DNA of 64,000 nt from Escherichia phage vB_Ec-G1. Below, piece by piece: positions 5,239 to 53,822 of the stretch. Position 1 is the first letter of the stretch. Each line of letters starts with the position of its first letter. The translations under genes were made by a program, and so were the position numbers. The notes under the pieces were generated by a model. It saw nothing but the letters and a program-made list of their open reading frames with translations, did not search any database and was not told the origin of the DNA. The stretch is from the sequence record PQ433349.1; one strand, given 5' to 3'.

Positions 5239-5313
5239 GGCCCTGTAGCTCAATGGGAGAGCTGTCGGCTCATAACCGATAGGTAGCTGGATCGAAACCA
5301 GCCAGGGCCACCA
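5239..5313 (+). tRNA. tRNA-Met: tRNA with CAT anticodon (Met/fMet/Ile2 not distinguishable)
   Basis: acceptor GGCCCTG/CAGGGCC, D-stem GCTC/GAGC, anticodon loop CTCATAA, T-arm GCTGG-ATCGAAA-CCAGC, CCA encoded. Confidence 0.75.
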
Positions 5314-5315
5314 AC

Positions 5316-5390
5316 GTCTTTATGGTGTAATGGATAGCACAGGAGTCTTCTAAACTCTTAGTCAAGGTTCGATTCCTTGTAAAGACACCA
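5316..5390 (+). tRNA. tRNA-Arg: tRNA-Arg (anticodon TCT)
   Basis: acceptor GTCTTTA/TAAAGAC, anticodon loop CTTCTAA, T-arm CAAGG-TTCGATT-CCTTG, CCA encoded. Confidence 0.75.
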
Positions 5391-5585
5391 GAACATTTTA
5401 ACATGAATTAGCTCAAGTGATTTGAACCCACTACTGATCATGGTGGCAGAGAATGAGGCAAGTATGTCAGACATTATAAACAAAGGCCACGGTTATATTA
5501 GAAGACATAAATGCTCGAAGAGCACCGTTCGTGGAGAACGGGGGTTGGTGGAGTCACCATTCATGGTAAAATGTTTTAAAAAACT

Positions 5586-5614
5586 ATTGACAACAAACAT
5601 TATTTTATGTTAGA
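5586..5614 (+). promoter_or_regulatory. sigma70-like promoter
   Basis: TTGACA 5586-5591, 17-nt spacer, TTAGAT. Confidence 0.5.
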
Positions 5615-5622
5615 TTATAAAT

Positions 5623-5713
5623 ATGGAAGGGCAAATCGACGTGGCGACGAAAACGGTCTTGAAAACCGCCGAGCTTGAAAGAGCCTTGGGAGTTCGACTC
5701 TCCCTCCTTCCGC
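5623..5713 (+). tRNA. tRNA-Ser: tRNA-Ser (anticodon TGA), long variable arm
   Basis: acceptor GGAAGGG/TCCTTCC, anticodon loop CTTGAAA, variable hairpin GAGC-TTGAAA-GAGC, T-arm GGGAG-TTCGACT-CTCCC, CCA; D-region spacing slightly atypical. Confidence 0.6.
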
Positions 5714-5737
5714 CAGATTGGTAGATTGGTAGATTGG
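5714..5737 (+). repeat. perfect tandem repeat (GATTGGTA)x3 spanning 5' end of tRNA-Ser(GCT)
   Basis: GATTGGTAGATTGGTAGATTGGTG read directly; second copy supplies the tRNA acceptor strand. Confidence 0.8.
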
Positions 5738-5811
5738 TGAAATGGTAGCCACAACAGTTTGCTAAACTGTAGTCGGAAACGGCGTGTAGGTTCGAGTCCT
5801 ACATCTACCGC
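5726..5811 (+). tRNA. tRNA-Ser: tRNA-Ser (anticodon GCT), long variable arm
   Basis: acceptor GGTAGAT/ATCTACC, anticodon stem ACAGT/ACTGT with loop TTGCTAA, T-arm GTAGG-TTCGAGT-CCTAC, CCA. Confidence 0.7.
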
Positions 5812-5941
5812 CAAGTTCTTTTTAATATAGCTTACTTTAATAGAGTAAATTTTCGGCAGATGGCCCCCATCATCTTACCGATACCTCATAGTTAGTGGTG
5901 CGAACACTGGCTATTTTAAAAAGAATTTAAATATTAGTATT

Positions 5942-6029
5942 TAGGTGAGTTAATTCCGTAGGGGTAGCGGGGCAGACTGTAAATCTGTTATCATTGCGAT
6001 TCGGGTGGTTCGACTCCATCACTCACCAC
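5942..6029 (+). tRNA. tRNA-Tyr: tRNA-Tyr (anticodon GTA), long variable arm
   Basis: acceptor GGTGAGT/ACTCACC, anticodon arm GCAGA-CTGTAAA-TCTGT, T-arm GGTGG-TTCGACT-CCATC, CCA; anticodon arm matches E. coli tRNA-Tyr as recalled. Confidence 0.8.
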
Positions 6030-6035
6030 CAAATT

Positions 6036-6121
6036 AAGATGAGTTGGCTGAATGGTTTAAGCAGCGGACTGTTAATCCGTGTTCGAAAGAACAATATAGG
6101 TTCGAATCCTATACTCATCGC
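6036..6121 (+). tRNA. tRNA, probable anticodon GTT (Asn) but with atypical long variable arm
   Basis: perfect acceptor GATGAGT/ACTCATC, T-arm ATAGG-TTCGAAT-CCTAT, CCA; best anticodon arm GCGGA-CTGTTAA-TCCGT; 15-nt extra hairpin GTTC-GAAA-GAAC. Confidence 0.45.
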
Positions 6122-6128
6122 CAGAATT

Positions 6129-6205
6129 ATGGACTTGTAGAGTTAAGGTAAACCCCCAGTCGCCAATAGGCTTCTGGAATTGCAGGTATCGAATCCTGCC
6201 GAGTC
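6129..6205 (+). pseudogene. tRNA-like element, probably non-functional or non-canonical
   Basis: acceptor-like GGACTTG/CGAGTCC and T-arm-like GCAGG-TATCGAAT-CCTGC (8-nt loop) but no convincing anticodon arm and no CCA. Confidence 0.3.
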
Positions 6206-6211
6206 CCAGCA

Positions 6212-6286
6212 TTGCTCCTATAGTATAATGGCTATTACAACGGTTTTGTAATCCGTGGATCTCTGTTCGATTCAGTGTGGGAGCAC
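6212..6286 (+). tRNA. tRNA-Thr: tRNA-Thr (anticodon TGT)
   Basis: acceptor GCTCCTA/TGGGAGC, anticodon stem ACGG/CCGT with loop containing TTTGTAA, T-loop TTCGATT, CCA. Confidence 0.6.
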
Positions 6287-6561
6287 CAACACAACATTAA
6301 GAGCACTGTGATTGATCGTCGTATCCTGTGCACAAGGTCTGCTCGAAAGACAGTGTTCTTAGTATTGTGTTGATCACAAAAAGAGTCACCCGAAACTTGA
6401 CCGGAGTAGGGTTGGATGGGGCAAAATGAGAAGCGGCTCTCCCATCGACAGCAACGAAGAATAATATTTGACTTTGGTTTTGTATTATTTTAAGTTAGCT
6501 TACCGAACGTAGGGCTAGTCACCCAACGGGATACTCGTCACTGTCCCAATCAATAAAAGTC

Positions 6562-6591
6562 TTGACAACAAATAGTAAAATGTAGTATAGT
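6562..6591 (+). promoter_or_regulatory. sigma70-like promoter upstream of tRNA-Gly
   Basis: TTGACA 6562-6567, 18-nt spacer, TATAGT. Confidence 0.55.
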
Positions 6592-6602
6592 AAATATATA
6601 GG

Positions 6603-6676
6603 GCGTTCTTGGTGTAGCGGTAGCATTCCGTCCTTCCAAGTCGGCGGCACGAGTTCGATCCTCGTAGAACGCTCCA
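6603..6676 (+). tRNA. tRNA-Gly: tRNA-Gly (anticodon TCC)
   Basis: acceptor GCGTTCT/AGAACGC, anticodon loop CTTCCAA, T-arm ACGAG-TTCGATC-CTCGT, CCA. Confidence 0.7.
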
Positions 6677-6772
6677 AATTATTTAATAAAGGGTTGCCAG
6701 AAAACTTTCTCTTTTACTCATGGTTTTCTCCTTCTCTCACACTTCTTCTGGTTGCCCTTCATTAAATGATTT

Positions 6773-6850
6773 ATTGGTTTGTAGTGTAGTCCGGTAGCAC
6801 ACGACACTTTGACTGTCGTAGGTTTGGTTCAAATCCAGACAGACCAGCCA
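6773..6850 (+). tRNA. tRNA-Gln: tRNA-Gln (anticodon TTG)
   Basis: acceptor TGGTTTG/CAGACCA (U1-A72), anticodon arm CGACA-CTTTGAC-TGTCG, T-arm TTTGG-TTCAAAT-CCAGA, CCA. Confidence 0.7.
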
Positions 6851-6855
6851 TATAA

Positions 6856-6932
6856 CGGAGTTTAGCTCAGTTTGGTAGAGCATACGCTTTGGGAGCGTAG
6901 GGTCGCAGGTTCGAATCCTGCAATTCCGACCA
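6856..6932 (+). tRNA. tRNA-Pro: tRNA-Pro (anticodon TGG)
   Basis: acceptor CGGAGTT/AATTCCG, D-stem GCTC/GAGC, anticodon arm TACGC-TTTGGGA-GCGTA, T-arm GCAGG-TTCGAAT-CCTGC, CCA. Confidence 0.8.
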
Positions 6933-6938
6933 ATTAAA

Positions 6939-7012
6939 TGTTTCGTAGTTCAATGGTAGAACCCACGACTGATAATCGTGAGACACAAGTTCGATTCTTG
7001 TCGAAACAACCA
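6939..7012 (+). tRNA. tRNA-Ile: tRNA-Ile (anticodon GAT)
   Basis: acceptor TGTTTCG/CGAAACA, D-stem GTTC/GAAC, anticodon arm CACGA-CTGATAA-TCGTG, T-arm ACAAG-TTCGATT-CTTGT, CCA. Confidence 0.8.
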
Positions 7013-7014
7013 GT

Positions 7015-7084
7015 TTCCCGTTAGACTTACAGGATAAGAGTTCCACAGCTTATTGTGATGCTGGTTCGAATCCAGCACGGGATA
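7015..7084 (+). tRNA. tRNA-like gene, anticodon unresolved (possible pseudo-tRNA)
   Basis: T-arm GCTGG-TTCGAAT-CCAGC and acceptor TTCCCGT/ACGGGAT (1:72 mismatch) but only a 4-bp CACA/TGTG stem with 6-nt loop where the anticodon arm should be; no CCA. Confidence 0.35.
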
Positions 7085-7090
7085 CATAAT

Positions 7091-7169
7091 AGCGGGATAG
7101 AGGAGTCTGGTCGTCCTCGCCAGTTTCATATGCTGGAGATCATCGGTTCAAATCCGATTCCCGCCTCCA
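7091..7169 (+). tRNA. tRNA-Met: tRNA with CAT anticodon, second copy (1:72 mismatch, initiator-like feature)
   Basis: acceptor AGCGGGA/TCCCGCC, D-stem GAGG/CCTC, anticodon arm CCAGT-TTCATAT-GCTGG, T-arm ATCGG-TTCAAAT-CCGAT, CCA. Confidence 0.65.
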
Positions 7170-7984: not shown

Positions 7985-8051
7985 TAATGCCCCTTCTCTT
8001 CCTAAAATAAAATTTTACGAGGAAGTAGAAGATAATGAATCTAAAGACTAA
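7914..8051 (+). CDS. hypothetical small protein (alternative frame)
   Basis: ATGATG after GGAGGAAG; 45 codons; overlaps 7814-7984 in another frame so at most one is likely real. Confidence 0.3.
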   Translation: MMTEKTWEEILAEAQPMEVKKIVNNAPSLPKIKFYEEVEDNESKD

Positions 8052-8427
8052 AACTGTATTAGGTTTTGTTTTAATTGTTGTTCTTATTCTTGCCGGAATG
8101 TTTGCTTATAACAAGATACGTGAGTCTGGCTACAAAGATGGTGTTGCCTATCAAACGCAATTATATCAAGCAGCCCAAGCAAAAGCAAAACAGGATTTTG
8201 ATGTTCTTCAAAAAAGAGCCGATGAAGAAAGAGCATTATTAAATACCCAAATAAACAACTTGTCTAAAAACAATGCACAATTAAAAGCAGATTTAGAGAA
8301 GAAGAAACAAACGATCAATGAGGATACAACGAATTATGCAAAAACTAATTCTGGCAGTATGTCTTGCTTTGCCCCTAATGATGACGGGTTGTTCATCATC
8401 AACAAAAGTTTCCCCAGTTCTTATTGA
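8035..8427 (+). CDS. putative i-spanin (Rz-like inner-membrane spanin subunit)
   Basis: 130 aa; N-terminal TM segment VLGFVLIVVLILAGMFAY then coiled-coil-like segment; o-spanin-like lipoprotein gene overlaps its 3' end in another frame. Confidence 0.6.
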   Translation: MNLKTKTVLGFVLIVVLILAGMFAYNKIRESGYKDGVAYQTQLYQAAQAKAKQDFDVLQKRADEERALLNTQINNLSKNNAQLKADLEKKKQTINEDTTNYAKTNSGSMSCFAPNDDGLFIINKSFPSSY

Positions 8428-8662
8428 TGAGTGTAAGGCTGTAGCCATAGAAAAGGTTAAAGGTCCAGATTCAGACTTGATGGATAAAGTATCGACACCT
8501 GTGCCATACACTAAAAATAAAATTGCAAAAGGGGTCAGTAGATCTGAAGTTGTTAACAACCAAACTCAAAACAACGCTCTTTGGGAGCAAGATAGACGAA
8601 AGGTTTTAGGTTTACAAACATATATTAAAACACTGCAAGAAAAAGGTATTATTGCTGAATAA
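8336..8662 (+). CDS. putative o-spanin (Rz1-like outer-membrane lipoprotein)
   Basis: signal peptide with lipobox LMMTGC; overlaps i-spanin out of frame; alternative start at 8318. Confidence 0.6.
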   Translation: MQKLILAVCLALPLMMTGCSSSTKVSPVLIDECKAVAIEKVKGPDSDLMDKVSTPVPYTKNKIAKGVSRSEVVNNQTQNNALWEQDRRKVLGLQTYIKTLQEKGIIAE

Positions 8663-10848: not shown

Positions 10849-12414
10849 GTGTCAACAGGAAAAAGAACGTACACTAAAAAGTCAGAATACTGGGACAAAG
10901 GTGCTGCAAATAAAGCTGCTCTCTCTCCAACAAAAGAAGCAGAGAAAGAGAAAACGTTACTCCTGTCACCTGAAATAGGAACGATCGGATTAAACTCAAT
11001 CAAAGCATTTACGAATTTCATGCAACCTTATGAGACTCGTTTCCCAGAATGTATTCGAACTTTTAAAGAGATGGGTGAAGACCCTGATGTAGCTACTGCT
11101 CTTGATGCTACGTATATCTTTGTAGATAGAGCATTCTTTGATTTTAAGATAAAATACAATGTAAGCTCGGCAAAGTCAAGAAAAGCTGCTAAGTTTATTG
11201 ATTATATGTTACGTAATATGCAAGCCCCTCTACGTCAATATGTTAGATCACTTTTGACATATAAGCAATATGGGTTTGCATTCGCAGAAAAAGTTTATGA
11301 GTTGGATGAAGATCCTAAGAGTCCTTACTTTGGGTATTGGCGATTAACTAAGCTGGCTTTTAGACCACAAGATACTCTTCACATGGCTCAACCTTTTACA
11401 TATTCGGCAGACGGACGTTCTATCTTGTCTGTTAACCAGAATATCACCAATACAATGTTAGCCCCAGGGAATACAACTTTAGAAACTGGTATTAAAGAAA
11501 TTCCTTTCAGTAAAGTTTTATTTGTTGGTAGCAACATTACAGAGAATAACCCACTAGGAGTTAGTCCGCTTTTAGCTGTATATCGTAGCTGGCGTGAAAA
11601 ATCTCTTATTCAGGAATTTGAGGTTATTGGGGTATCTAAAGATTTAGGCGGTATGCCAGTTCTTAAGGTTCCAAGTGACATTCTAAACAGGGCATCTTTA
11701 GATCCTGCTGGGGATGAAGCACAATCTCTTCGAGTTCTCCAAGCCAACATCGCTAACCTGCACTCTGGTGAGCAAGCCTACATGGTATTGCCTTCAGACG
11801 TTTATGAAGGTACAGTGATGCGTCAATACGATCTTGTATTCCAAGGTGTTGATGGCACGGGTAAACAGTTTGACACTCAAGCACTAATCAAACAACGCAA
11901 ACTGGATATTTATAACCGCTTTGGTGCGGGTGTGTTGATTATGGGTGATGGTGATGCAGGAAGTTTTGCGCTTTCTGACAACAAACAAACACTATTGTCT
12001 CATTTTATTGAGCGAGATGTAGATATTGTTGTAGAAGCTATAAACTCTCAACTGATCCCTCAAACACTACGACTAAACAATATCTTCCTTTCTGATGAAG
12101 ATATGCCTAAGTTTGTTAGTGGTGAAATGGGTGATCCTGATATTGAAGTAAATGCTAAAGCTATTCAACAGTTGGTAGCCTCTGGTGCAATACCTTTAAC
12201 CCCAGAAGTTATTAACGAGTTCCTTGAAAAAATTGGTTTTGAATATCGCATCCCTGACGATATTGTTGCCAATAAAGAGAAATTCTTTGAATTCATGGAT
12301 AACTATATGCCTGACAAAACTTCACGATCAGGAGATGGTTTAGCTACAGCGGGAACTGGAACGTCTGATACTGTTTCTGCTTTAGATCCTTCAGCACAAA
12401 ACCTGTCGAATTAA
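10849..12414 (+). CDS. portal protein (putative)
   Basis: 521 aa immediately after terminase; GTG start after GGAGGAA; size and position typical of portal. Confidence 0.7.
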   Translation: MSTGKRTYTKKSEYWDKGAANKAALSPTKEAEKEKTLLLSPEIGTIGLNSIKAFTNFMQPYETRFPECIRTFKEMGEDPDVATALDATYIFVDRAFFDFKIKYNVSSAKSRKAAKFIDYMLRNMQAPLRQYVRSLLTYKQYGFAFAEKVYELDEDPKSPYFGYWRLTKLAFRPQDTLHMAQPFTYSADGRSILSVNQNITNTMLAPGNTTLETGIKEIPFSKVLFVGSNITENNPLGVSPLLAVYRSWREKSLIQEFEVIGVSKDLGGMPVLKVPSDILNRASLDPAGDEAQSLRVLQANIANLHSGEQAYMVLPSDVYEGTVMRQYDLVFQGVDGTGKQFDTQALIKQRKLDIYNRFGAGVLIMGDGDAGSFALSDNKQTLLSHFIERDVDIVVEAINSQLIPQTLRLNNIFLSDEDMPKFVSGEMGDPDIEVNAKAIQQLVASGAIPLTPEVINEFLEKIGFEYRIPDDIVANKEKFFEFMDNYMPDKTSRSGDGLATAGTGTSDTVSALDPSAQNLSN

Positions 12415-12443
12415 AAATATTTAATATTTTTTAATTTTTCTAT

Positions 12444-12472
12444 TGACAAAACAACAAATATCCTGTAGACTA
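12444..12472 (+). promoter_or_regulatory. possible sigma70-like promoter (weak -10)
   Basis: TTGACA 12444-12449 then TAGACT about 17 nt downstream. Confidence 0.35.
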
Positions 12473-12507
12473 AGATTTATGGGATATCTGTTTTTAAGAG
12501 GTTTCAA

Positions 12508-12987
12508 ATGGAACTCAATAAAGATACACTGTGGGAACTCTTCAAAACCTTCGCTGGTTTTAAAGAGAATTCTGAATCCCAACAAGATTCTATACCATCT
12601 CAAAAACCTGAAACTCTAGTCAAACAAAATAAATTTGATGAAGAAAAGATGCAGGTTATTGAGGTCTTGTATTGTCCACCTGAAGAAGACGATCTCCACG
12701 GAGAGCGCATGTCTGATTTGGAAATCAGGAAGATGGTTGACAACTTCAATGAGAATATTACCAATATTAGTGGTAATCTTGGTCACATGAAGAACACCGA
12801 TAAGTTTTCTCCAATTAAAGCTTGGGTAAATGAAGTCGATTGTTACATTGGTGACGAACTCGTTGTGGAAGGAACTCCCCTCGTTAAAATCCAATTCAAC
12901 GACCCTGAATTATATCAAGCTCGTAAAGACGGCGTTCTTAAAGGTTTGAGTATAGGCGCAATGGGCGTTAAAGTCAAGAAGGACTAA
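12508..12987 (+). CDS. head morphogenesis protein (function unassigned)
   Basis: 159 aa between portal and scaffold-like gene. Confidence 0.45.
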   Translation: MELNKDTLWELFKTFAGFKENSESQQDSIPSQKPETLVKQNKFDEEKMQVIEVLYCPPEEDDLHGERMSDLEIRKMVDNFNENITNISGNLGHMKNTDKFSPIKAWVNEVDCYIGDELVVEGTPLVKIQFNDPELYQARKDGVLKGLSIGAMGVKVKKD

Positions 12988-12989
12988 TC

Positions 12990-14105
12990 GTGGCAAATAC
13001 ATATTTAACTAACGTAGACTTTTCTGGAAAAGCTACGGAAGAGTCACTAGGTGCTCATATTGCTTACACTTTTGATTTTCAAGGTGGAGCGGCATCTGGT
13101 TATAATACCCCCCTTTTATTTAAGTCAGACGGATCTCCAGACATAACTTTTGAAAAGTTAGAAGCTCTCACTAAAATGGGAGAAGATGTTACAGAGTTAC
13201 GTAAAAGCTATATTCAACAAGTAATGGATCGCATTTCTGAAAAAGTGCGTGAAAAATTTGAAGCTGGTTGGGATTGGGTTTACGTTATTGATGCTGACTT
13301 CGATGCGAACGTTGCAATTTTCTGTTCAGATAACGGTATGTTCTCTGTTGGCTTTAAAGTTGACGGACTGAATGTTGAAGTTGAAGAGGTTGCTAAACCT
13401 GTTGTTCGTGTTACTGATTATCAAGTTGTTGATGGTGATGTAATGATCTCCATTGATTTCTTTGAGGACGTTTTAGACGATGCTTTGAGTAATCTCGTTA
13501 AGAGTTCCTTGAAACAAAGTCAAGTTAAAGATTATTTAGTGAAAGCTCACGCTAAAGCTAATACAAACTCTGTGGATGCAGAGGCTAACCCCGCAGGTGA
13601 TAAATCTGCAAACACAACTGGAATCAATAAAGGAGAAACCCCTTTGGAAAATATCAACAAAGAAGAATTCCTGAAATCTGCTGAATTCCAAGAACTGATG
13701 AAAGCACAGATCGCTGAAGCTGTAGAAAAAGCAGCCGCAGATGCACGTGCAGCCGCAGAACTTGAAGCACAGGAAAAAATCGCTAAGGCAGAACAGGAAG
13801 CAGAAGAACTTCGTAAAGCTGAACAAGCTCGTATCGAAGAAGAATATACAACTGTTGTTAAATCCTATTCTTTCGTAGAAGAAGACAAAGTTGAAGCTCT
13901 CGTTAAATATCTGGTAGACAATAAAGATATCGCTGAAACTATCGTCAAAGCATTCGAAAAAGCACGTGCAGAAGTGGACGCAGTTAAGAAAGAATTTGGA
14001 ACAGAACGTGGTGTTGATGTGATCAATACTCAACCTGTAGCTAAATCTTCTTCTGAACTGATTAGTCAGAAAGCTGCTGAACTTAAAAAAGCCCAGAAAC
14101 AATAA
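12990..14105 (+). CDS. scaffolding-like protein
   Basis: 371 aa; C-terminal half Ala/Glu/Lys-rich and coiled-coil-like (AAADARAAAELEAQEKIAKAEQEAEELRKAEQARIEEE); GTG start. Confidence 0.55.
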   Translation: MANTYLTNVDFSGKATEESLGAHIAYTFDFQGGAASGYNTPLLFKSDGSPDITFEKLEALTKMGEDVTELRKSYIQQVMDRISEKVREKFEAGWDWVYVIDADFDANVAIFCSDNGMFSVGFKVDGLNVEVEEVAKPVVRVTDYQVVDGDVMISIDFFEDVLDDALSNLVKSSLKQSQVKDYLVKAHAKANTNSVDAEANPAGDKSANTTGINKGETPLENINKEEFLKSAEFQELMKAQIAEAVEKAAADARAAAELEAQEKIAKAEQEAEELRKAEQARIEEEYTTVVKSYSFVEEDKVEALVKYLVDNKDIAETIVKAFEKARAEVDAVKKEFGTERGVDVINTQPVAKSSSELISQKAAELKKAQKQ

Positions 14106-14124
14106 TCTTAGGAGATTAAATTAA

Positions 14125-14523
14125 ATGGCTAAAGGAATTACTTTATCTAACTCTCGCCAGGAATTCGGACACCTGGTTCTGGGTGGAGTGTTTAGCTCTG
14201 ACCTTGGACACTGTGTACGTGAAGTTAACCTGGTTAAAACAGCAACCATGAAAATTGGTTCTATCCTGAAAGCTGACAACACTGAAGCTGCTAAAGCTGA
14301 AGCTGCCGATGCTGCTAAAGTTCTGATTTGGACTGATGCTCTGTTCGGTATTGACGATGTAGCAGTAGGTGACACTTTCACCGCAGTTGTTGGCGTACGT
14401 GATCTTACTCTGAACCGCTTTGCAGTATACTACAAAGATGGCTCCCTGGTAGATGACGCTGGCGTAGCAGCACTGGAAACACATGATCTGAAACTGACCG
14501 AAAAAGTCGTTTTCACTTCTTAA
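14125..14523 (+). CDS. head decoration protein (putative)
   Basis: 132 aa directly upstream of major capsid gene, strong RBS, high-expression codon usage. Confidence 0.5.
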   Translation: MAKGITLSNSRQEFGHLVLGGVFSSDLGHCVREVNLVKTATMKIGSILKADNTEAAKAEAADAAKVLIWTDALFGIDDVAVGDTFTAVVGVRDLTLNRFAVYYKDGSLVDDAGVAALETHDLKLTEKVVFTS

Positions 14524-14544
14524 TTTTAATAGGAGATTAATATA

Positions 14545-15546
14545 ATGCCAGCAGTAATTTTAGATCAGGTTGTAGATTTCAGCCCTATGATCGAACTTCA
14601 GGATTCCCCTGATACACTGATTGCCAGCCTGAATCTGTTCAGCGTTGACTATCATTCAACTACCGCTATTGAAATCGGTAAAGAAAAAGCTGAAGATGCG
14701 CTGATCTCCGCTCGTGAGCGTGGTGGTGAGCGTAACTTCCTGACCATGAAAAATCCAGAACTGAAAGCATTCCGTATTCCGTTCTTCCCTCTGGATAAAA
14801 ACATCAAAGCTCAAGATATTCAATCTTTCCGTAGCTTTGCGATGGCAGGAATCAATGACTCTCTGCGCACAGACGCTGAAGTTGTTAACCGCTATATGTC
14901 CCAGATTCTGCGTGACGTAGCAAAAACCAAAGAGAAAATCTTTGCAGAAGCAGTTATGGGTCGTGCCTATAACGGCGTAGGTGGTGCAGCTAACTCTGCA
15001 TACAACTGGTATACCGAGTGGAATGCTACCCAGAAATCTGTTGCTGTAGACTTTGCTTCTACCACTGTTTCTCCAGCAGCCACTATCGAGCAAGAAGCTC
15101 GTGCTTACATCATCGATACTAAACAAGATGGCTCTACCGCTACTCGTATCGTAGCTCTGTGTTCTCGTGAATTTTTCGCATCTCTGGTTAACTCTCCATT
15201 TGTTCGCCAGGCGTATCAGTATTTCCAGGGAACTCCTAACCTTCTGCGTGACCGCCTTAGCGGTAACATGGATGTTCAGGTGTTCGAATGGAACGGTGTA
15301 ACTTACATTGAAGATATCCACGGTAACATCCCTGCTGGTGAAGCATATGTTCTGCCTATGGGTATCGAAGGTATGTTCCAGGCGCACTACGCTCCTGCGG
15401 ATACTCCAGAACTGGCTAACACCCAGGCTCGTGAACTGTATACCTTCATGATCAGCCAGCACCGCACCATTCAGCTTCAGTCTGAATTCTCGCTGCTCGC
15501 AGTTAACACCCGTCCAGAACTGGTAGTTAAACTGACTACGGCTTAA
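14545..15546 (+). CDS. major capsid protein (lambda gpE-like family)
   Basis: 333 aa; C-terminal region with LANTQARELYTF resembles lambda E motif as recalled; strong RBS, E. coli-like optimal codons, strong terminator downstream. Confidence 0.8.
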   Translation: MPAVILDQVVDFSPMIELQDSPDTLIASLNLFSVDYHSTTAIEIGKEKAEDALISARERGGERNFLTMKNPELKAFRIPFFPLDKNIKAQDIQSFRSFAMAGINDSLRTDAEVVNRYMSQILRDVAKTKEKIFAEAVMGRAYNGVGGAANSAYNWYTEWNATQKSVAVDFASTTVSPAATIEQEARAYIIDTKQDGSTATRIVALCSREFFASLVNSPFVRQAYQYFQGTPNLLRDRLSGNMDVQVFEWNGVTYIEDIHGNIPAGEAYVLPMGIEGMFQAHYAPADTPELANTQARELYTFMISQHRTIQLQSEFSLLAVNTRPELVVKLTTA

Positions 15547-15567
15547 CAGAACTCTGTTAATATTAGA

Positions 15568-15600
15568 GGCTCGTCCGTGATGGGCGAGCCTTTTCTGTTT
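15568..15600 (+). terminator. rho-independent terminator after major capsid gene
   Basis: 9-bp stem GGCTCGTCC/GGGCGAGCC with GTGAT loop, then TTTTCTGTTT. Confidence 0.8.
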
Positions 15601-15630
15601 ACAACAAGAGTTTACAATGAGGAGATTGAT

Positions 15631-15975
15631 ATGTCAAACCCAGAATTGAAACGTTACTTTAGTTATCACGAAATGATTCGTGATTTCGAATCGCTTTCAC
15701 CACTGATTGATGCTGATAAAACATTAGTATCTGCGCCACCAATGTCTTTCTATCTGAAAGATGGTCGTATTGCATTAGGTGGAAACTTCATTCACTTCCT
15801 CACACGTTTGAGAGAAGAAACAGGTATTCTTGTGCATCCTTTTGCAAGTGAAGAACACATGGGTTACTATCTTGTAAGTTACGAAGATTATGCACCTGTA
15901 AAAATCAAAGAAGAAGTTTTAAAAGTAGAAGCGGTAGACACTCCAGCTAAAAAACGTTCCCTTCGTAAAAAATAA
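15631..15975 (+). CDS. hypothetical head-tail joining protein
   Basis: ATG at 15631 after GAGGAG; the track ORF start at 15577 lies inside the terminator loop. Confidence 0.5.
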   Translation: MSNPELKRYFSYHEMIRDFESLSPLIDADKTLVSAPPMSFYLKDGRIALGGNFIHFLTRLREETGILVHPFASEEHMGYYLVSYEDYAPVKIKEEVLKVEAVDTPAKKRSLRKK

Positions 15976-15984
15976 GGTGGGCTT

Positions 15985-16533
15985 ATGCTGAATGCGGTAG
16001 AGTTGGCACCACTGATCCGAATTCTTGTTTATAACCCTTCTCAAGAAGTATTGCCAGATGCAATGCTGATTCAGATCATCCAGACTTGGATTGATATTAT
16101 AGGGAATGAAGATAAGGATAAGTGTGCAGTATTGTGGAACAGCTTGATTTCTGTTTTAGAGTATTTATGGAACAACGATGTTCTTAATAACAATACTCAA
16201 ACAGGAGGAGCTATGTCCCGCAGAGAAAAGATGGGTGAAGTCGAAGTTGAAGTTAAATTTAACAACGGTCAAGTAACTTATAAGTCTCCGTGGGAAGATA
16301 TTTATCATAACTATTTAAATGGTCTTATGGTTATTCCTGGGTGCACGGCAGGACGAGGAGCAACCAGTAAAGTTCTTATTGGTGGTGTTGATGCTCGTGA
16401 GATTGATCGAGTAAACAGTGATCCTAACTCTGTAAATGGTCTTGGTAATGTTGCAAGTGTTGATCGTAATACACGCAACGTTAATTATTTGCGAAATTAT
16501 GGACCTGTTTCTTTTTATCGTAGGGACAAATAA
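15985..16533 (+). CDS. hypothetical structural protein (head completion/connector region)
   Basis: 182 aa, position between capsid and tail genes. Confidence 0.45.
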   Translation: MLNAVELAPLIRILVYNPSQEVLPDAMLIQIIQTWIDIIGNEDKDKCAVLWNSLISVLEYLWNNDVLNNNTQTGGAMSRREKMGEVEVEVKFNNGQVTYKSPWEDIYHNYLNGLMVIPGCTAGRGATSKVLIGGVDAREIDRVNSDPNSVNGLGNVASVDRNTRNVNYLRNYGPVSFYRRDK

Positions 16534-17021
16534 TGGAAAGTGAGATCTTACCAGGTGATGATACGGATTGGGAAACCATTATCAAAAAGATGATGGACCT
16601 TGAACAAGTTCAAATCGAAGCTGGTTTTTTAACAAACAAAAGGCATCCTGAATCAGATCTCACTATTCCTGCAATAGCAGCTATTCAACAATATGGTAAT
16701 GAAACAAATAACATACCTGCTCGCCCTTTTATAACAGATGGCGCTGTTATCTCACAGAACAATATCGCTAAAAAGATGAAGCAGGTGTTTGCAAATTACT
16801 TAATGAATAATGTCGGGTTAGCTGTTTTTGAGCCTATAGCGAGAGCCTCTAGAGAAGGAATAGCTCAAGCGATTGCAATGCAACGTTATCGTCCTTTATC
16901 TCCTGTGACAATTAAGATACGACAAGATAAAGGCAACTATTCTAATCATATCTTAATAGATACGGCACACATGATAAATGCAATCGAAACAAAAATCACA
17001 AAAAGCAAGTCTAAAAAATAA
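16533..17021 (+). CDS. hypothetical structural protein
   Basis: 162 aa, ATGA start/stop overlap with upstream gene. Confidence 0.45.
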   Translation: MESEILPGDDTDWETIIKKMMDLEQVQIEAGFLTNKRHPESDLTIPAIAAIQQYGNETNNIPARPFITDGAVISQNNIAKKMKQVFANYLMNNVGLAVFEPIARASREGIAQAIAMQRYRPLSPVTIKIRQDKGNYSNHILIDTAHMINAIETKITKSKSKK

Positions 17022-31996: not shown

Positions 31997-33619
31997 ATGT
32001 CAACTACAATTACTAATTTACCCGAAACATCAAAAGTTAATGGTTCAGATTACCTGGTTTTAGACCAACCTGATAAGACTGTTAAAAGCACAGTTTCCAA
32101 CTTTCTTGCTGACACTGGGGTGGTTTTAGCCACCCAGTTGAAAGATACAGATGGAGCAGATTTAATAGGCTCACCACATGCCGGAACTCTGGCACAAATG
32201 TTGCCGTGGGTTACTCCAGAGCAATTTGGCGCTGTTGGTGACGGTGTAACAGATGATATTGCGGCTCTTGACGCCTGTATGTCATACGCGAGAGAACGCG
32301 GAGTAGATATCGTATTTTCCAAAACTTATGCCATTTCCAGACCCTACGTAATATATATGGGGCTACGGAGGAACCCACGCCATATAGGTATGGGTAATAT
32401 GGCAAAAATAATCATTACAACTACGGCCACATCTGGGCTTCCGGTTGATTCTTATGAGATTCCTATGGACGTTAACGCGGCTGTTATTGTAGCCGCGATC
32501 ACAGGTACAGGGTATAACCAGCAACCACAGAACTTCCGCTGGGAAAACATCGACATTGATACTACTGTAAATGCAGATTACGGCATGTATACGACAAAAA
32601 TGCAATCAGCATCCATACGGAACTTCAGGACTCATAATTTCAAAACAGGTATCCAAGATAACGGGTCATGGAATACTTTGTATGAAAATATAAAAATGAC
32701 AAAACACAGTATTGTTGGCTTCCGTAAGACTAGGGGTACTAGCACTACTATACGTAACTGTTATGTAGAGCAATCCACCGTAGGGTATCACGTTCGCAGT
32801 GGCTATTCTCAGCTTGAGGGTTGTGCTTGTGATACAAGTACAGATGTATCTTATTGGATTGAAGGCAACCCTGTAGCGTCTAGTAGTGACGATACTTTCT
32901 CTATTGTATCTTGTGGCTCAGAGAACTCAGGCAAAGCTGTTATACGATTAACTGGTACAGTTACACTTAGTGTAAGAAACTTCCAAGCATTTAACTGGGC
33001 GCAGCAGCAAGACCCTATACCTGAATACTTCATGGATTTACAGTCAAATAGCGCTAGTATATCTCTTGAAGATATACGGTATTTAGGTATTAGCGCCGGA
33101 CGAATAAAAGATACTGGGGTTAGTAACAATATAACCATTCGCAACATGACTACACGTGGAAGCGATGTGCGCAGCGGCGATGTACTGCCGAATAGCACCA
33201 AGATTATTGAAATGTCGCGTTCAGGTGTTCGTGTGTCTTCCGGTTATTCCCCTGATGGGATACTTATAGATTTTGACAATCTCTTCTTCACCACAGGGTC
33301 TAGCACTCAGCCAGTAAACTACAGTCCATTATTCAATAAGCAGCGTATATACCGCACGAAGGTGACGGTAACAAGAACATCGGGAACATATGGGAGAGCA
33401 CAAGTAACTTTGCCATTCAATTTTTCTGATACAAGTTATGTAGTGCAACTTACACCCAATGTGTACCATACCGACATAGCTACACATGCTCTCGTGGCTA
33501 CTGTTGGGCCTACAGACAAGACAGTAAACAGTTTTTATGTAAATTTAGGTAGCATCAACGGCAGCAGTACGTGGACTAGTTGTCAGGTTGATGTTACCGT
33601 TTTCGGACTGACTCCATAA
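31997..33619 (+). CDS. tailspike with right-handed beta-helix (pectate-lyase-like) domain, putative depolymerase
   Basis: 540 aa; FGAVGDGVTDDIAALDAC motif near N-terminus of the helix domain; N-terminal virion-attachment-like segment. Confidence 0.7.
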   Translation: MSTTITNLPETSKVNGSDYLVLDQPDKTVKSTVSNFLADTGVVLATQLKDTDGADLIGSPHAGTLAQMLPWVTPEQFGAVGDGVTDDIAALDACMSYARERGVDIVFSKTYAISRPYVIYMGLRRNPRHIGMGNMAKIIITTTATSGLPVDSYEIPMDVNAAVIVAAITGTGYNQQPQNFRWENIDIDTTVNADYGMYTTKMQSASIRNFRTHNFKTGIQDNGSWNTLYENIKMTKHSIVGFRKTRGTSTTIRNCYVEQSTVGYHVRSGYSQLEGCACDTSTDVSYWIEGNPVASSSDDTFSIVSCGSENSGKAVIRLTGTVTLSVRNFQAFNWAQQQDPIPEYFMDLQSNSASISLEDIRYLGISAGRIKDTGVSNNITIRNMTTRGSDVRSGDVLPNSTKIIEMSRSGVRVSSGYSPDGILIDFDNLFFTTGSSTQPVNYSPLFNKQRIYRTKVTVTRTSGTYGRAQVTLPFNFSDTSYVVQLTPNVYHTDIATHALVATVGPTDKTVNSFYVNLGSINGSSTWTSCQVDVTVFGLTP

Positions 33620-33624
33620 AACTA

Positions 33625-33643
33625 AGCCCCCGAATTGGGGGGC
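33625..33643 (+). terminator. GC hairpin after tailspike gene
   Basis: GCCCCC-GAATT-GGGGGGC, no clear T-tract. Confidence 0.4.
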
Positions 33644-33660
33644 ACAATTACGGTAATATT

Positions 33661-34104
33661 ATGAATGAATCAGGTGAACTGCTCCTAGTCAGACTGGAGA
33701 AACGATTGAAGACTCTGTTTGATAATCAGGCAATGGATAGACAGGACCGTGAGAAACTGGAGGAAACTTTGGTAGAACTACGGGATTCAATAAACGATAT
33801 AGTAAATAGACTTAACAGCGTGGAGGATATCTTAGCTAAATCTGAACCTACCATCGAAGAGTTCATCACCATTAAACATAAAGTTGCTGGTGCTGGAATT
33901 TTTGGCAAGTGGGCTTCATTAAGGTTCACACAAGATATGTCCTGCAAGCGCATGTCATCGCCATGTGATAAAATGATGAAAACATATCGTAGCAGGGTTA
34001 ATCTTGTCTTTAATTACTATCGTACTAACTCAAAGTGTTGTCACTACCACTGCAAGCCCCTCTTTGGAGGGGGCTTACTTAGAAAAACAAAGAGGTTGTT
34101 ATGA
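33661..34104 (+). CDS. hypothetical protein
   Basis: 147 aa, weak RBS. Confidence 0.4.
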   Translation: MNESGELLLVRLEKRLKTLFDNQAMDRQDREKLEETLVELRDSINDIVNRLNSVEDILAKSEPTIEEFITIKHKVAGAGIFGKWASLRFTQDMSCKRMSSPCDKMMKTYRSRVNLVFNYYRTNSKCCHYHCKPLFGGGLLRKTKRLL

Positions 34105-34409
34105 ATGAAATGTTCTCCCAAGGTGGTAAAGGTTCAACCGGAATCTTAACCAATAAACAAGCAGTAGCCCGTCACTTTGGAGTTAAACAATCTGAGGTTG
34201 TTTACTTCTCAGTTGGTGTGGATTTGGGTGGGTATAAGGTTGTCTATGATAAGGAGACGCAAAGGGCGTATTCCCTACCTGCTGATATTGCCTCAGGTAT
34301 TACTGCCATTAGTCTTAGTGCTGCTGTACTTGTGCATTCAGCGGGTTCTGTAGACCTTGGGGAATTAGCTGTATATCGTGATTTAAAAAGTAATGAGAAC
34401 GCACCATGA
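34101..34409 (+). CDS. hypothetical protein
   Basis: 102 aa, RBS AAAGAGG. Confidence 0.45.
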   Translation: MNEMFSQGGKGSTGILTNKQAVARHFGVKQSEVVYFSVGVDLGGYKVVYDKETQRAYSLPADIASGITAISLSAAVLVHSAGSVDLGELAVYRDLKSNENAP

Positions 34410-34648
34410 GAAAATTTTTAATAGGTATGTTTTGTACATATCCTGATAATAAAGTCAGTTCTACTAAAGTCTGGAACGCTGTAGGCATGTCGGTTATGAC
34501 AGGCATGTTTATCTTTTTAGGAATAGAAAAAGAAATTCCTGAATGGATGGGTTGGGCTTTTGTTTTCATGATAACCCCTTCTCGCCTCATGAAAAATCTT
34601 ATTGATTTACGTTGGGGCAGATCACAATCTACCAAAGAGGATGACTAA
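34406..34648 (+). CDS. small membrane protein with two predicted TM segments (holin-like topology)
   Basis: 80 aa; hydrophobic stretches VWNAVGMSVMTGMFIFLGI and WMGWAFVFMITPS, charged C-terminus. Confidence 0.4.
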   Translation: MRKFLIGMFCTYPDNKVSSTKVWNAVGMSVMTGMFIFLGIEKEIPEWMGWAFVFMITPSRLMKNLIDLRWGRSQSTKEDD

Positions 34649-46587: not shown

Positions 46588-46589
46588 GA

Positions 46590-46619
46590 AAAGGAGCCAT
46601 TTGGCTCCTTTCTTTTATT
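46590..46619. terminator. bidirectional terminator between convergent late and replication blocks
   Basis: AAAGGAGCC-ATTT-GGCTCCTTT flanked by A-run on one side and T-run on the other. Confidence 0.7.
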
Positions 46620-46651: not shown

Positions 46652-47578
46652 TTAGAAGCAATGCAGGAAGTTTCTACCATATTGCAGTCCAATAGGGGCA
46701 AATGGAATATCATCATCGAAGTCCATTGGAGGTTCTTCTTGATTACTTGGTTCTGGTTGTGGTTCAGGTTTCTTCTCTTCTTTCTTCTCTTCTTTCTTAG
46801 GTTGTTCTGCGGAACCACGAATGGCAGCAGCAACTTTATCAGACAGAGCCAGAACTTTACGAGCAGAATCAATCAGATCTTCTACAGATACAGTCTTAAT
46901 GGTATGGTCTTTACAAGCATTGAGAATAGCGTGACCAACAGATGCCCCAAGATCATAATCATTAATATCAACGCCACGAGATTCAGCAATTTCAGATTTC
47001 AGCGTGACAGTTGCAGATTGAACAACCCCAGCGATATCGAAAGCATCGCCTTTAACACCATTACGAATCAGTTCCAGTGCACCATTTACTGCGTGACCAG
47101 TTTCCAGACCTACAGTATCACGTTTTTTATAGGACTGTTTAGGAGCAGCATCGTTGGAACCTTTATTGCCAGAAGATTTGTTAGACTTCTGAACACCATC
47201 GGTAGACAATACTGTAATACGAGATTTTTTAGTATTGTAGTAAGTTTTACCGCCTTTATTATCAACGCGATCAATATCAATACTTACTTCTACACCTTTT
47301 TCAATAGTGATCCAATTATCACCTTCTTTGACTTGCAGGTTTTCATAACCTTCTTTCAGTTCAATATCACCAAGAGAAATCCAAACACCTTTCTCATCTG
47401 GTTTAGCACCTTTCTCTTTCAGAACAAGAGAAGCTCGGTGAGTTGAAACAATCGTTTTTCCTTCCCAATGAAAAGTTTTAGGTTCAGCGAATTTATCCAG
47501 TTTAACGTAGTCTACGATACCAGTTGCATAAGTTACGGTTTTGCCTTTACGATCAGTTTCAGTATTAATTACGGACAT
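46652..47578 (-). CDS. ssb: single-stranded DNA-binding protein
   Basis: 308 aa; OB-fold-like N-terminus, Gly/Lys-rich linker, acidic C-terminal tail ending DFDDDIPF; RBS GAGGAGA. Confidence 0.8.
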   Translation of the reverse strand: MSVINTETDRKGKTVTYATGIVDYVKLDKFAEPKTFHWEGKTIVSTHRASLVLKEKGAKPDEKGVWISLGDIELKEGYENLQVKEGDNWITIEKGVEVSIDIDRVDNKGGKTYYNTKKSRITVLSTDGVQKSNKSSGNKGSNDAAPKQSYKKRDTVGLETGHAVNGALELIRNGVKGDAFDIAGVVQSATVTLKSEIAESRGVDINDYDLGASVGHAILNACKDHTIKTVSVEDLIDSARKVLALSDKVAAAIRGSAEQPKKEEKKEEKKPEPQPEPSNQEEPPMDFDDDIPFAPIGLQYGRNFLHCF

Positions 47579-53390: not shown

Positions 53391-53822
53391 TTAGTTGTTA
53401 GCGAACTCAATAGTGAGGTCAACTTTACCATCATCAGAAATAACCATGTTTTTAGTATTTTTAAAGATGATATCTACTTTACCTTCACTTACACGACAGA
53501 ATGCAACACCATCTGCAACTTTATCGATATAATATTTGTAAGAAAGAATACCCACTTTACTACGACCAGCACCTTTTGTGAAAGAAGGGCTTACATCGAA
53601 ACGGAAACCTTTAGAAGAAACAACACGGTAAGAACGTCCAGTTGGGATATGTTCAATAACAGAGACATTGTTCTCAACAACTTTTACAGCAAACTCTTCA
53701 GGATGATCCTCAACAATCATGTGCGGAATGGCAAATGCCAACGCTTGTTTGTGTTTAATAACACCAGCACCCAGAGCACCAGCAGCTTTAACTTTTGCAT
53801 TCAGATCGATTGTCATACGCAT
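53391..53822 (-). CDS. hypothetical protein
   Basis: 143 aa, RBS AGAGGAGAAG. Confidence 0.5.
   Translation of the reverse strand: MRMTIDLNAKVKAAGALGAGVIKHKQALAFAIPHMIVEDHPEEFAVKVVENNVSVIEHIPTGRSYRVVSSKGFRFDVSPSFTKGAGRSKVGILSYKYYIDKVADGVAFCRVSEGKVDIIFKNTKNMVISDDGKVDLTIEFANN

What the first reader, a model, noticed from the sequence alone, without database searches (positions are those of the whole stretch)
14125..15546. Capsid genes use host-like optimal codons unlike the AT-rich remainder
By eye the decoration and major capsid genes are dominated by CTG, CGT, GGT, GAA, AAA and ACC codons and look more GC-rich than neighbouring late genes, which favour A/T-ending codons. They also have the strongest RBSs and are bracketed by the strongest terminator in the window. 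This suggests selection for very high translation, or a capsid module acquired from a different lineage.
Basis: seen in the sequence. Interest (0 to 1): 0.4.

Follow-up and report, generated by a model that had tools for sequence, protein, structure and literature searches.

The report
Capsid genes tuned to host codons
The two most abundant head proteins of this E. coli phage are written almost entirely in the codons that E. coli uses for its own most highly expressed genes, which is the familiar mark of selection for efficient translation and not a sign of foreign origin.

Summary
The window is a Phapecoctavirus (phAPEC8/ESCO5-like E. coli myovirus). 14125-14523 encodes the head decoration protein and 14545-15546 the major capsid protein (MCP).

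The core observation is real. Against a reference built from E. coli ribosomal-protein, tuf and fus genes, MCP (CAI 0.666) and decoration (0.652) rank 1 and 2 of 78 ORFs (others 0.379 +/- 0.083). The excess survives control for amino-acid sequence (z 9.8 and 5.6) and for GC3 as well (z 7.5 and 4.2).

Several details fail:
- GC3 is raised only in MCP.
- The Shine-Dalgarno sites are average (rank 46 of 78).
- The terminator is the strongest in the window but lies only downstream.
- Four other genes on both strands are similarly adapted: sheath, SSB, a TerD-like gene and an unknown 143-aa gene.

Translational selection is supported:
- The codons fit E. coli's high-expression set better than its average genes.
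- The same genes are biased in relatives at 90% and about 41% MCP identity.
- dS is lowest in these genes.

Acquisition from another lineage is not supported. Synteny and identity levels agree with portal, terminase and tube in five relatives.

This is a known phenomenon (Lucks et al. 2008) and of low interest.

The parts
12443..12471 (+). Promoter-like site (TTGACA-N17-TAGACT) with an AT-rich upstream stretch, in the portal-protease intergenic region. It is the inferred start of the head-gene transcription unit.
   Evidence: Consensus scan gives 10 of 12 matches. The region is 92% identical to ESCO9 while synonymous sites of the flanking genes are saturated. Function is inferred, not shown.
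12508..12987 (+). Probable prohead protease (XkdF/S78-like). Relatives annotate it as a DNA methyltransferase. CAI 0.403.
   Evidence: Pfam Peptidase_S78_2, E 1.4e-11. CAI.
12990..14105 (+). Putative scaffold protein with moderate codon adaptation (CAI 0.526).
   Evidence: ESCO5 annotation, phrog_2970, CAI and z = 3.3.
14110..14114 (+). Shine-Dalgarno AGGAG of the decoration gene, 10 nt before the ATG, followed by an A/T-only spacer.
   Evidence: Sequence. Duplex energy -7.3 kcal/mol, rank 46 of 78. The motif is conserved in ESCO9.
14125..14523 (+). Head decoration protein gene. CAI 0.652, rank 2 of 78.
   Evidence: phrog_2680, E 1.9e-43. PDB match to phi92 gp123, E 1.8e-71. Codon statistics.
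14531..14535 (+). Shine-Dalgarno AGGAG of the MCP gene, 9 nt before the ATG.
   Evidence: Sequence. Duplex energy -7.3 kcal/mol.
14545..15546 (+). Major capsid protein gene (HK97 fold, Phage_cap_E). CAI 0.666, rank 1 of 78.
   Evidence: Pfam PF03864, E 3.7e-36. PDB match to phi92 gp124, E 6.9e-201. Codon statistics.
15565..15593 (+). Intrinsic-terminator-like hairpin (13 bp, 7 G-C) followed by TTTTCTGTTT, 19 nt after the MCP stop.
   Evidence: Scan. Fold -21 kcal/mol, z -5.8, the strongest of the candidates folded. A hairpin plus U-tract occupies the same position in ESCO9, JES2013, KNP2 and K408, with unrelated stem sequences.

Best explanation
The decoration and major capsid genes are the most highly translated genes of this phage. 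They have been shaped by long-term selection on synonymous sites to use the codons read by E. coli's most abundant tRNAs.

Inferred mechanism:
- The two genes lie at the end of a head-gene transcription unit: promoter-like site 12443-12471, then protease, scaffold, decoration and MCP, closed by the strong terminator at 15565-15593.
- Each virion needs several hundred copies of each protein, in roughly equal numbers.
- Fast elongation on host-optimal codons (CTG, CGT, GGT, GCT, GTT, ACC/ACT, AAA, GAA, CAG, ATC, AAC, TTC) frees ribosomes sooner and raises capsid output and burst size.
- The low-copy bulk of the genome stays at its A/T-biased mutational equilibrium. It leans on codons such as AGA, ACA, CAA and ATA, for several of which the phage carries its own tRNAs.

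Shown here: the bias, its independence from amino-acid content and GC3, its host-high-expression character, its conservation in orthologs, and the reduced dS.

Inferred, not shown: the expression level, the transcription unit, and the fitness effect.
For: 1. Size of the bias. CAI 0.666 and 0.652 are ranks 1 and 2 of 78. z = 9.8 and 5.6 with amino acids fixed, and 7.5 and 4.2 with GC3 class also fixed.
2. Fit to host models. Per-codon log-likelihood fits the E. coli high-expression set best: MCP -1.29 vs -1.50 for E. coli average genes and -1.54 for the rest of the phage; decoration -1.38, -1.61 and -1.51. Only 4 of 78 ORFs fit any E. coli model better than the phage's own usage.
3. Main axis of codon usage. 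PC1 of RSCU explains 27% of the variance and tracks CAI (rho 0.87), not GC3 (rho 0.16). MCP is the top gene. Positive loadings are CGT, CTG, TCT, GCT and GGT; negative are AGA, TTA, ATA, AGT and ACA.
4. Spread across the genome. The adapted set covers several modules and both strands: MCP, sheath, TerD-like, SSB, decoration and a 143-aa gene all have z > 4. Two of the non-structural ones sit behind near-consensus sigma-70 promoters.
5. Conservation in orthologs. Per-gene CAI correlates with ESCO9 (rho 0.87) and JES2013 (rho 0.73). MCP is 0.668 and 0.730 there, and decoration 0.644 and 0.632.
6. Synonymous constraint. dS window vs ESCO9 is lowest in decoration (0.52), MCP (0.80) and scaffold (0.89). 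Elsewhere it is 1.2-2.4 or saturated. CAI vs dS gives rho -0.74. The tube has a similar dN (0.058) but dS 1.18.
7. Abundance. In rV5 virion mass spectrometry the MCP and decoration homologs had the highest coverage (83% and 85%) (PMC3606486). A solved capsid of a homolog holds 788 and 793 chains over two entries.
8. Literature. Head proteins of 74 phages are biased to host-preferred codons after control for amino acids and GC3 (PMC2266997). Recoding the T7 capsid gene with 182 suboptimal codons halved capsid protein and burst size (PMC5592923).
Against:
- The Shine-Dalgarno sites are only average, so high initiation is not evident from the SD alone.
- The tail tube should match the sheath in copy number, yet it is only weakly adapted here (CAI 0.414, z 2.7).
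- Adaptation is incomplete. Pro stays CCT/CCA (13/14; host-optimal CCG 1/14), GGA stays at 22%, and GAT and TAT remain in the majority.
- An Akashi-type test found no excess of optimal codons at invariant residues of MCP (odds ratio 1.16, Z 0.42). There is therefore no support for accuracy selection specifically, although the test had little power.
Confidence: 0.85

Rival explanations
1. The capsid module (decoration plus MCP) was acquired horizontally from a lineage or host-like source with a different, more GC-rich codon usage, and has not yet drifted to the phage's own composition.
For: These two genes have the highest total GC in the window (0.468 and 0.454, against 0.386). They fit E. coli codon models better than the phage's own usage. 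Phage genomes are mosaic, and this window does contain a swapped tailspike cassette at 32148-34410.
Against: - The order portal-protease-scaffold-decoration-MCP is conserved in ESCO5, ESCO9, JES2013 and Vibrio phage K408.
- MCP identity to each relative matches other core genes. ESCO9: MCP 90%, tube 92%, TerL 86%, portal 83%. JES2013: 41, 44, 42 and 43%. KNP2: 41, 43, 38 and 45%. K408: MCP 31%, portal 31%.
- The bias is equally strong in orthologs whose other genes have saturated synonymous sites, so it is maintained and is not a fading relic.
- The codons match E. coli's high-expression set, not average E. coli DNA: GCT/GCA 84% and GTT/GTA 92%, rather than GCG, GCC and GTG.
- Decoration GC3 is not raised.
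- The short intergenic stretches inside the module are about 20-26% GC.
- The one truly swapped region in the window shows the opposite signature: GC3 0.365, ENC 54.5 and a low CAI of 0.306.
Confidence: 0.03
2. A local mutational or compositional bias (regional GC elevation, transcription- or replication-associated mutation) raises GC in this stretch, and the resemblance to host-optimal codons is incidental.
For: The 1-kb windows 14001-16000 are among the more GC-rich in the profile (0.433-0.439). MCP GC3 is raised (z 5.5).
Against: - The CAI excess persists when each codon's third-position G/C class is held fixed (z 7.5 and 4.2).
- The main codon-usage axis does not correlate with GC3 (rho 0.16).
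- Many of the favoured codons end in T or A (CGT, GGT, GCT, GTT, TCT, ACT, AAA, GAA).
- Genes immediately adjacent are not affected (15580-15975 CAI 0.43, portal 0.34).
- Equally adapted genes lie on the opposite strand 30-45 kb away.
Confidence: 0.03
3. Synonymous sites in these genes are selected for something other than elongation efficiency on host tRNAs. Candidates are mRNA stability or structure, avoidance of nuclease or restriction targets, or independence from the phage's own tRNA supply.
For: The capsid genes avoid four host-rare codons that are common in the bulk genes: AGA 0/22 vs 20%, ACA 12% vs 42%, CAA 22% vs 71%, ATA 0/27 vs 19%. The phage encodes cognate tRNAs for the first three (anticodons UCU, UGU, UUG). 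A reader for ATA would be present only if one of the two CAU tRNAs is an Ile2 type, which was not tested. The SD sites are only average, so control may lie elsewhere. The Akashi-type test gave no accuracy signal.
Against: - The preferred codons are those of E. coli ribosomal-protein and EF-Tu/EF-G genes across nearly all amino acids. The tRNA-abundance explanation is the simplest.
- An experiment in T7 links capsid-gene codon optimality directly to translation output without transcript effects (PMC5592923).
- No specific motif avoidance was tested here.
Confidence: 0.08

Closest known systems
Translational selection for host-preferred codons in phage head genes (Lucks, Nelson, Kudla & Plotkin 2008, PMC2266997; from my own knowledge, not checked here, earlier work by Sharp and co-workers on T7 and T4)
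   Same: Head proteins carry significantly more host-preferred codons than non-structural genes after control for amino-acid sequence and GC3, and head exceeds tail. The window shows exactly this: MCP and decoration lead, followed by sheath and scaffold, with the other structural genes well behind.
   Different: Nothing in kind. In this window only a handful of the roughly 40 structural genes are adapted. Three non-structural genes (SSB, TerD-like, a 143-aa unknown) are as adapted as the head genes.
T7 gene 10 (major capsid) codon-deoptimisation experiments (Jack et al. 2017, PMC5592923)
   Same: A major capsid gene whose synonymous codon content determines capsid protein yield and burst size. 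It gives an experimental basis for the mechanism proposed here.
   Different: Different phage family and capsid gene. No such experiment exists for this phage as far as the searches showed.
Phage-encoded tRNAs that complement codons common in the phage and rare in the host (rV5: PMC3606486; Sf14: PMC12482277)
   Same: The window's tRNA cluster (5239-7169) includes readers of AGA, ACA, GGA, CAA and CCA. These codons are 2-7 times more frequent in the bulk phage genes than in E. coli genes.
   Different: In Sf14 the late and structural genes were inferred to rely on phage tRNAs. Here the two most abundant late proteins avoid AGA, ACA, CAA and ATA and use host-optimal codons. They keep GGA and CCA at bulk levels.
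phi92 gp124/gp123 and lambda gpE-type capsid with a decoration protein
   Same: MCP matches Pfam Phage_cap_E and phi92 gp124 (E 6.9e-201). Decoration matches phi92 gp123 (E 1.8e-71).
   Different: None relevant. The proteins are ordinary orthologs.

Membership tests
Genes under translational selection for host-optimal codons | Host-optimal codon use exceeds expectation from the gene's amino-acid sequence and the genome's own synonymous usage | tested here: met
   z = 13.3 and 7.3 by resampling; z = 9.8 and 5.6 analytically; ranks 1 and 2 of 78.
Genes under translational selection for host-optimal codons | The excess is not explained by GC3 or base composition | tested here: met
   z = 7.5 and 4.2 with the third-position G/C class fixed. 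PC1 correlates with CAI (rho 0.87) and not with GC3 (rho 0.16).
Genes under translational selection for host-optimal codons | Codon choice resembles the host's highly expressed genes more than the host's average genes | tested here: met
   Log-likelihood per codon: MCP -1.29 (high-expression set) vs -1.50 (average genes); decoration -1.38 vs -1.61.
Genes under translational selection for host-optimal codons | Synonymous substitution rate is reduced relative to less biased genes | tested here: met
   dS 0.52 (decoration) and 0.80 (MCP) vs 1.2-2.4 or saturated elsewhere. Spearman CAI vs dS is -0.74, p 1.3e-4.
Genes under translational selection for host-optimal codons | The gene product is among the most abundant proteins made | not testable with these tools
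   Indirect only. Homologs give the highest virion mass-spectrometry coverage in rV5. A homologous solved capsid holds about 780 chains of each protein.
Horizontally acquired (mosaic) module | Break of synteny or absence from close relatives | tested here: not met
   The same gene order is found in ESCO5, ESCO9, JES2013 and K408. Alignment to ESCO5 is continuous at 98.4% across 6863-32147.
Horizontally acquired (mosaic) module | Divergence from relatives is discordant with the rest of the core genes | tested here: not met
   MCP identity tracks portal, TerL and tube in five relatives. This rests on pairwise identities only; no trees were built.
HK97-fold major capsid protein, Phage_cap_E (PF03864) | Full-length match above the Pfam gathering score | tested here: met
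   125.3 bits against a cutoff of 22.9, covering residues 14-331. PDB match to phi92 gp124.
Rho-independent terminator | Stable G+C-rich hairpin immediately followed by a U-tract, downstream of a stop codon and on the coding strand | tested here: met
   13-bp stem, -21 kcal/mol, followed by TTTTCTGTTT. The position is conserved in four relatives. Termination itself was not tested.

The most novel reading that the evidence does not exclude
The phage runs a two-tier codon regime. A handful of very abundant proteins (MCP, decoration, sheath, SSB, TerD-like) are tuned to the host's abundant tRNAs. They avoid AGA, ACA and CAA, for which the phage brings its own tRNAs, and also the host-rare ATA.

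The exceptions would then reflect the phage's own tRNAs relaxing selection even in top-expressed genes. GGA is kept at 22-25% where a phage tRNA-Gly(UCC) is present, against 0-3% in JES2013, whose locus lacks that tRNA. Pro is kept as CCA/CCT.

This would contrast with models in which late structural genes depend mainly on phage tRNAs.
Probability: 0.25. Interest if true: 0.3.

Novelty: already known. Interest (0 to 1): 0.12.

Why it matters
It matters little beyond this phage. It is a clean, quantitative example of translational selection on synonymous sites in a virus, with a built-in contrast between a few strongly adapted genes and an A/T-biased bulk that is served partly by phage tRNAs.

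Practical uses are modest:
- The codon signal marks which unannotated genes are probably very highly expressed, such as the 143-aa ORF 53391-53822 and the TerD-like gene.
- It supports E. coli-like enterobacteria as the long-term host.
- It warns against reading compositional outliers in phage genomes as horizontal transfer without a control for expression-linked codon bias.

Tried and rejected
- **Biopython's built-in Sharp E. coli index** is absent from this version. I built a reference from 30 MG1655 ribosomal-protein, rpoA, tufA and fusA genes instead.
- **Akashi-type accuracy test.** I compared optimal codons at invariant and variable MCP residues across six phages. There was no signal (odds ratios 0.72-1.27, |Z| < 0.9), so I make no claim for accuracy selection. 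Only 57 invariant synonymous sites were available.
- **The 'strongest RBS' idea** was tested by anti-SD duplex energy, allowing alternative starts for the other genes. It is rejected (rank 46 of 78).
- **Function of other high-CAI genes.** PDB and NCBIfam searches for 46652-47578 and 53391-53822 gave nothing useful beyond an SSB-type C-terminal tail. The SSB label rests on the RefSeq annotation of the ESCO5 ortholog.
- **Link between phage tRNAs and the residual non-optimal codons.** GGA fits the presence or absence of tRNA-Gly(UCC) across three genomes, but Pro does not: all three carry tRNA-Pro(UGG), yet JES2013 uses CCG at 42%. This remains a weak lead.
- **Horizontal transfer and regional GC bias** were considered and rejected, as set out under the rival explanations.
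- **Not done:** formal phylogenetic trees, whole-genome CAI ranking outside the window, and any tRNA-adaptation index using measured tRNA pools.

Full report
**What the window is.** Bases 13000-17000 match about 60 E. coli phages of the genus Phapecoctavirus at 95-99.7% identity (phAPEC8, ESCO5, ESCO13 and others). The annotated relative ESCO5 gives the order large terminase, portal, a small ORF, scaffold, head decoration, major head protein, neck genes, sheath, tube, chaperone, tape measure, baseplate. ORF 14125-14523 matches phrog_2680 'head decoration' (E 1.9e-43). ORF 14545-15546 matches phrog_29 and Pfam Phage_cap_E (E 3.7e-36). Both match solved chains of phage phi92, gp123 and gp124. 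A cluster of ten tRNA genes lies at 5239-7169. Their anticodons read Met (two), AGA, AGY, AAY, ACA, GGA, CAA, CCA and AUY.

**Checking the observation.**
- I built a CAI reference from 30 highly expressed E. coli K-12 genes: ribosomal proteins, rpoA, tufA and fusA, 5185 codons in all. I applied it to 78 ORFs chosen from the mechanical ORF list by strand block.
- MCP scores 0.666 and decoration 0.652, the two highest values. The other 76 average 0.379 with sd 0.083.
ACC is 41% alongside ACT at 44%.
- Redrawing each gene's synonymous codons from the usage of the other ORFs gives z = 13.3 and 7.3. A leave-one-out analytic version gives 9.8 and 5.6. It still gives 7.5 and 4.2 when every codon's third-position G/C class is held fixed. 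The bias is real and far beyond chance.

- Total GC is highest in these two genes, but GC3 is clearly raised only in MCP (0.425 vs 0.296 expected). Decoration is 0.344 vs 0.280 (z 1.7). Its GC excess comes from codon positions 1 and 2, i.e. an Ala-rich composition.
- Both genes still end most codons in A or T. Many favoured codons are T- or A-ending (CGT, GGT, GCT, GTT, TCT, ACT, AAA, GAA).
- The Shine-Dalgarno sites (AGGAGA, -7.3 kcal/mol against the anti-SD) rank 46 of 78. Many genes have AAGGAGG at -12 to -13 kcal/mol.
- The hairpin at 15565-15593 is the strongest terminator-like element in the window, at -21 kcal/mol against at most -16.4 for the others folded. It lies only downstream of MCP. 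Nothing separates scaffold from decoration.
- The bias is not confined to the capsid. Sheath (z 7.0), a TerD-domain gene at 60451-61053 (z 6.7), the SSB gene at 46652-47578 (z 6.3) and an unknown 143-aa gene at 53391-53822 (z 4.6) are comparably adapted.

**Selection or foreign origin?** Five tests separate the two readings.
1. *Which E. coli usage is matched.* Both genes fit the high-expression set better than 43 ordinary K-12 genes, and better than the phage's own usage. Ala and Val are GCT/GCA and GTT/GTA, as in ribosomal-protein genes. They are not GCG, GCC or GTG, as in average E. coli DNA.
2. *The main axis of codon usage.* The first principal component of RSCU among 51 ORFs of at least 120 codons explains 27% of the variance. 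It correlates with CAI (rho 0.87) and not with GC3 (rho 0.16). MCP is at its extreme.
3. *Persistence in relatives.* I compared 25 orthologs in ESCO9 (Justusliebigvirus, MCP 90% identical) and 23 in JES2013 (Vequintavirus, MCP about 41-43%). The per-gene CAI ranking is preserved (rho 0.87 and 0.73). MCP and decoration are again on top (0.668 and 0.644; 0.730 and 0.632). Synonymous sites in most genes are saturated between these lineages, so an inherited foreign signature would have decayed. A maintained one implies selection.
4. *Synonymous divergence.* dS between the window and ESCO9 is lowest in decoration (0.52), MCP (0.80) and scaffold (0.89), against 1.2-2.4 or uncomputable elsewhere. CAI vs dS gives rho -0.74. 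The tail tube has the same dN as MCP but dS 1.18, so the low dS is not simply recent recombination.
5. *Concordance with other core genes.* Gene order around the capsid genes is the same in both subfamilies and in a Vibrio phage. MCP identity to each of five relatives equals that of portal, terminase and tube.

As a positive control, the window does hold one truly swapped segment. Bases 32148-34410, in the tailspike region, have no counterpart at that place in ESCO5. Its signature is the opposite of the capsid genes': raised GC3, weak bias (ENC 54.5) and low CAI (0.306).

**How it most likely works.**
- The portal-protease intergenic region carries a promoter-like TTGACA-N17-TAGACT preceded by an AT-rich tract. 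It is 92% identical to ESCO9 even though the neighbouring coding regions are saturated at silent sites.
- The next strong terminator is the one after MCP. A strong hairpin plus U-tract sits right after the MCP stop in ESCO9, JES2013, KNP2 and K408, with unrelated stem sequences.
- I therefore infer a head transcription unit: protease (Pfam Peptidase_S78_2), scaffold, decoration, MCP. Its terminator keeps the downstream neck and tail genes at lower transcript levels.
- Within the unit, decoration and MCP are needed in hundreds of copies per virion and in about equal numbers. A solved homologous capsid holds 788 and 793 chains across two entries. In rV5 virions these two proteins gave the highest mass-spectrometry coverage.
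- Host-optimal codons shorten ribosome transit and raise output. In T7, replacing 182 capsid-gene codons with suboptimal ones halved capsid protein and burst size without changing transcripts (PMC5592923).
- The expression level, the transcription unit and the fitness effect are inferences here, not measurements.

**Relation to the phage tRNAs.** The bulk genes use AGA, ACA, CAA, GGA, CCA and ATA far more than E. coli does, and the phage encodes tRNAs for five of these. The capsid genes avoid AGA (0/22), ACA (12% vs 42%), CAA (22% vs 71%) and ATA (0/27). They keep GGA (22%) and CCA (43%) at bulk levels, and almost never use the host-optimal CCG. JES2013 has no tRNA-Gly(UCC) in the fetched locus, and GGA is 0/33 in its MCP plus decoration. 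However, Pro usage does not follow tRNA presence in the same way. This is a weak lead and not a finding.

**Comparison with what is known.** Elevated use of host-preferred codons in phage head genes was shown across 74 phages by Lucks et al. (PMC2266997). Their analysis controlled for amino acids and GC3, and found head genes more biased than tail genes. The present case is a textbook instance. I found no paper analysing it in phAPEC8-like phages, but nothing about it departs from the known pattern.

**Verdict.** The 'high translation' reading is right and the 'foreign module' reading is wrong. The finding is already known in kind and of low interest.

Noticed in passing
window 32148-34410 (ORFs 31997-33619, 33661-34104, 34101-34409): A swapped receptor-binding cassette. 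This stretch has no similarity to the otherwise 97-98% identical ESCO5 at the same place, and only partial hits in other phages. The tailspike ORF has a weak pectate-lyase-like Pfam match. Composition: GC3 0.365, ENC 54.5-61, CAI 0.27-0.31.
   Followed up: partly
window 12508-12987 (+): Orthologs in ESCO5 and JES2013 are annotated 'DNA methyltransferase'. Pfam instead gives Peptidase_S78_2 (XkdF-type prohead protease, E 1.4e-11), which fits its place between portal and scaffold. This is probably a propagated misannotation.
   Followed up: partly
window 60451-61053 (-) and 61564-62358 (-); promoter-like site 61407-61380 (-): A phage-encoded TerD-domain protein (CAI 0.645; fits the E. coli high-expression codon model best) and a vWA-TerF-like protein (CAI 0.48). 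The TerD gene lies downstream of a perfect 12/12 sigma-70 consensus (TTGACA-16-TATAAT). These are probably very highly expressed early genes of unknown role.
   Followed up: partly
window 53391-53822 (-); promoter-like site 53884-53856 (-): A 143-aa protein of unknown function (phrog_9938; no Pfam, PDB or NCBIfam match) lies between the primase/helicase and a methyltransferase gene, near the DNA polymerase gene. Its CAI of 0.640 is as high as the capsid genes, and an 11/12 sigma-70-like promoter sits just upstream. It is likely an abundant replication-associated protein.
   Followed up: partly
window 5239-7169 (+): A cluster of 10 tRNA genes (Met x2, Arg-UCU, Ser-GCU, Asn-GUU, Thr-UGU, Gly-UCC, Gln-UUG, Pro-UGG, Ile-GAU). 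The A-ending codons they read are common in the bulk phage genes and rare in E. coli. The sets differ between relatives: 15 in the ESCO9 locus, 4 in JES2013, 19 in KNP2.
   Followed up: partly
window 46589-46612 (both strands): A palindromic hairpin with T-runs on both sides (-16 kcal/mol on each strand) lies exactly where the rightward structural block meets the leftward replication block. It is a probable bidirectional terminator.
   Followed up: partly
window 12405-12515 and L003 17865-17978: The portal-protease intergenic region, with TTGACA-N17-TAGACT and an AT-rich upstream tract, is 92% identical between two genera whose coding regions are saturated at silent sites. This points to a conserved regulatory element.
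   Followed up: partly
window 8035-8427 and 8318-8662 (+): Two overlapping ORFs just upstream of the large terminase gene correspond to the Rz-like i-spanin and o-spanin pair annotated in ESCO5.
   Followed up: no
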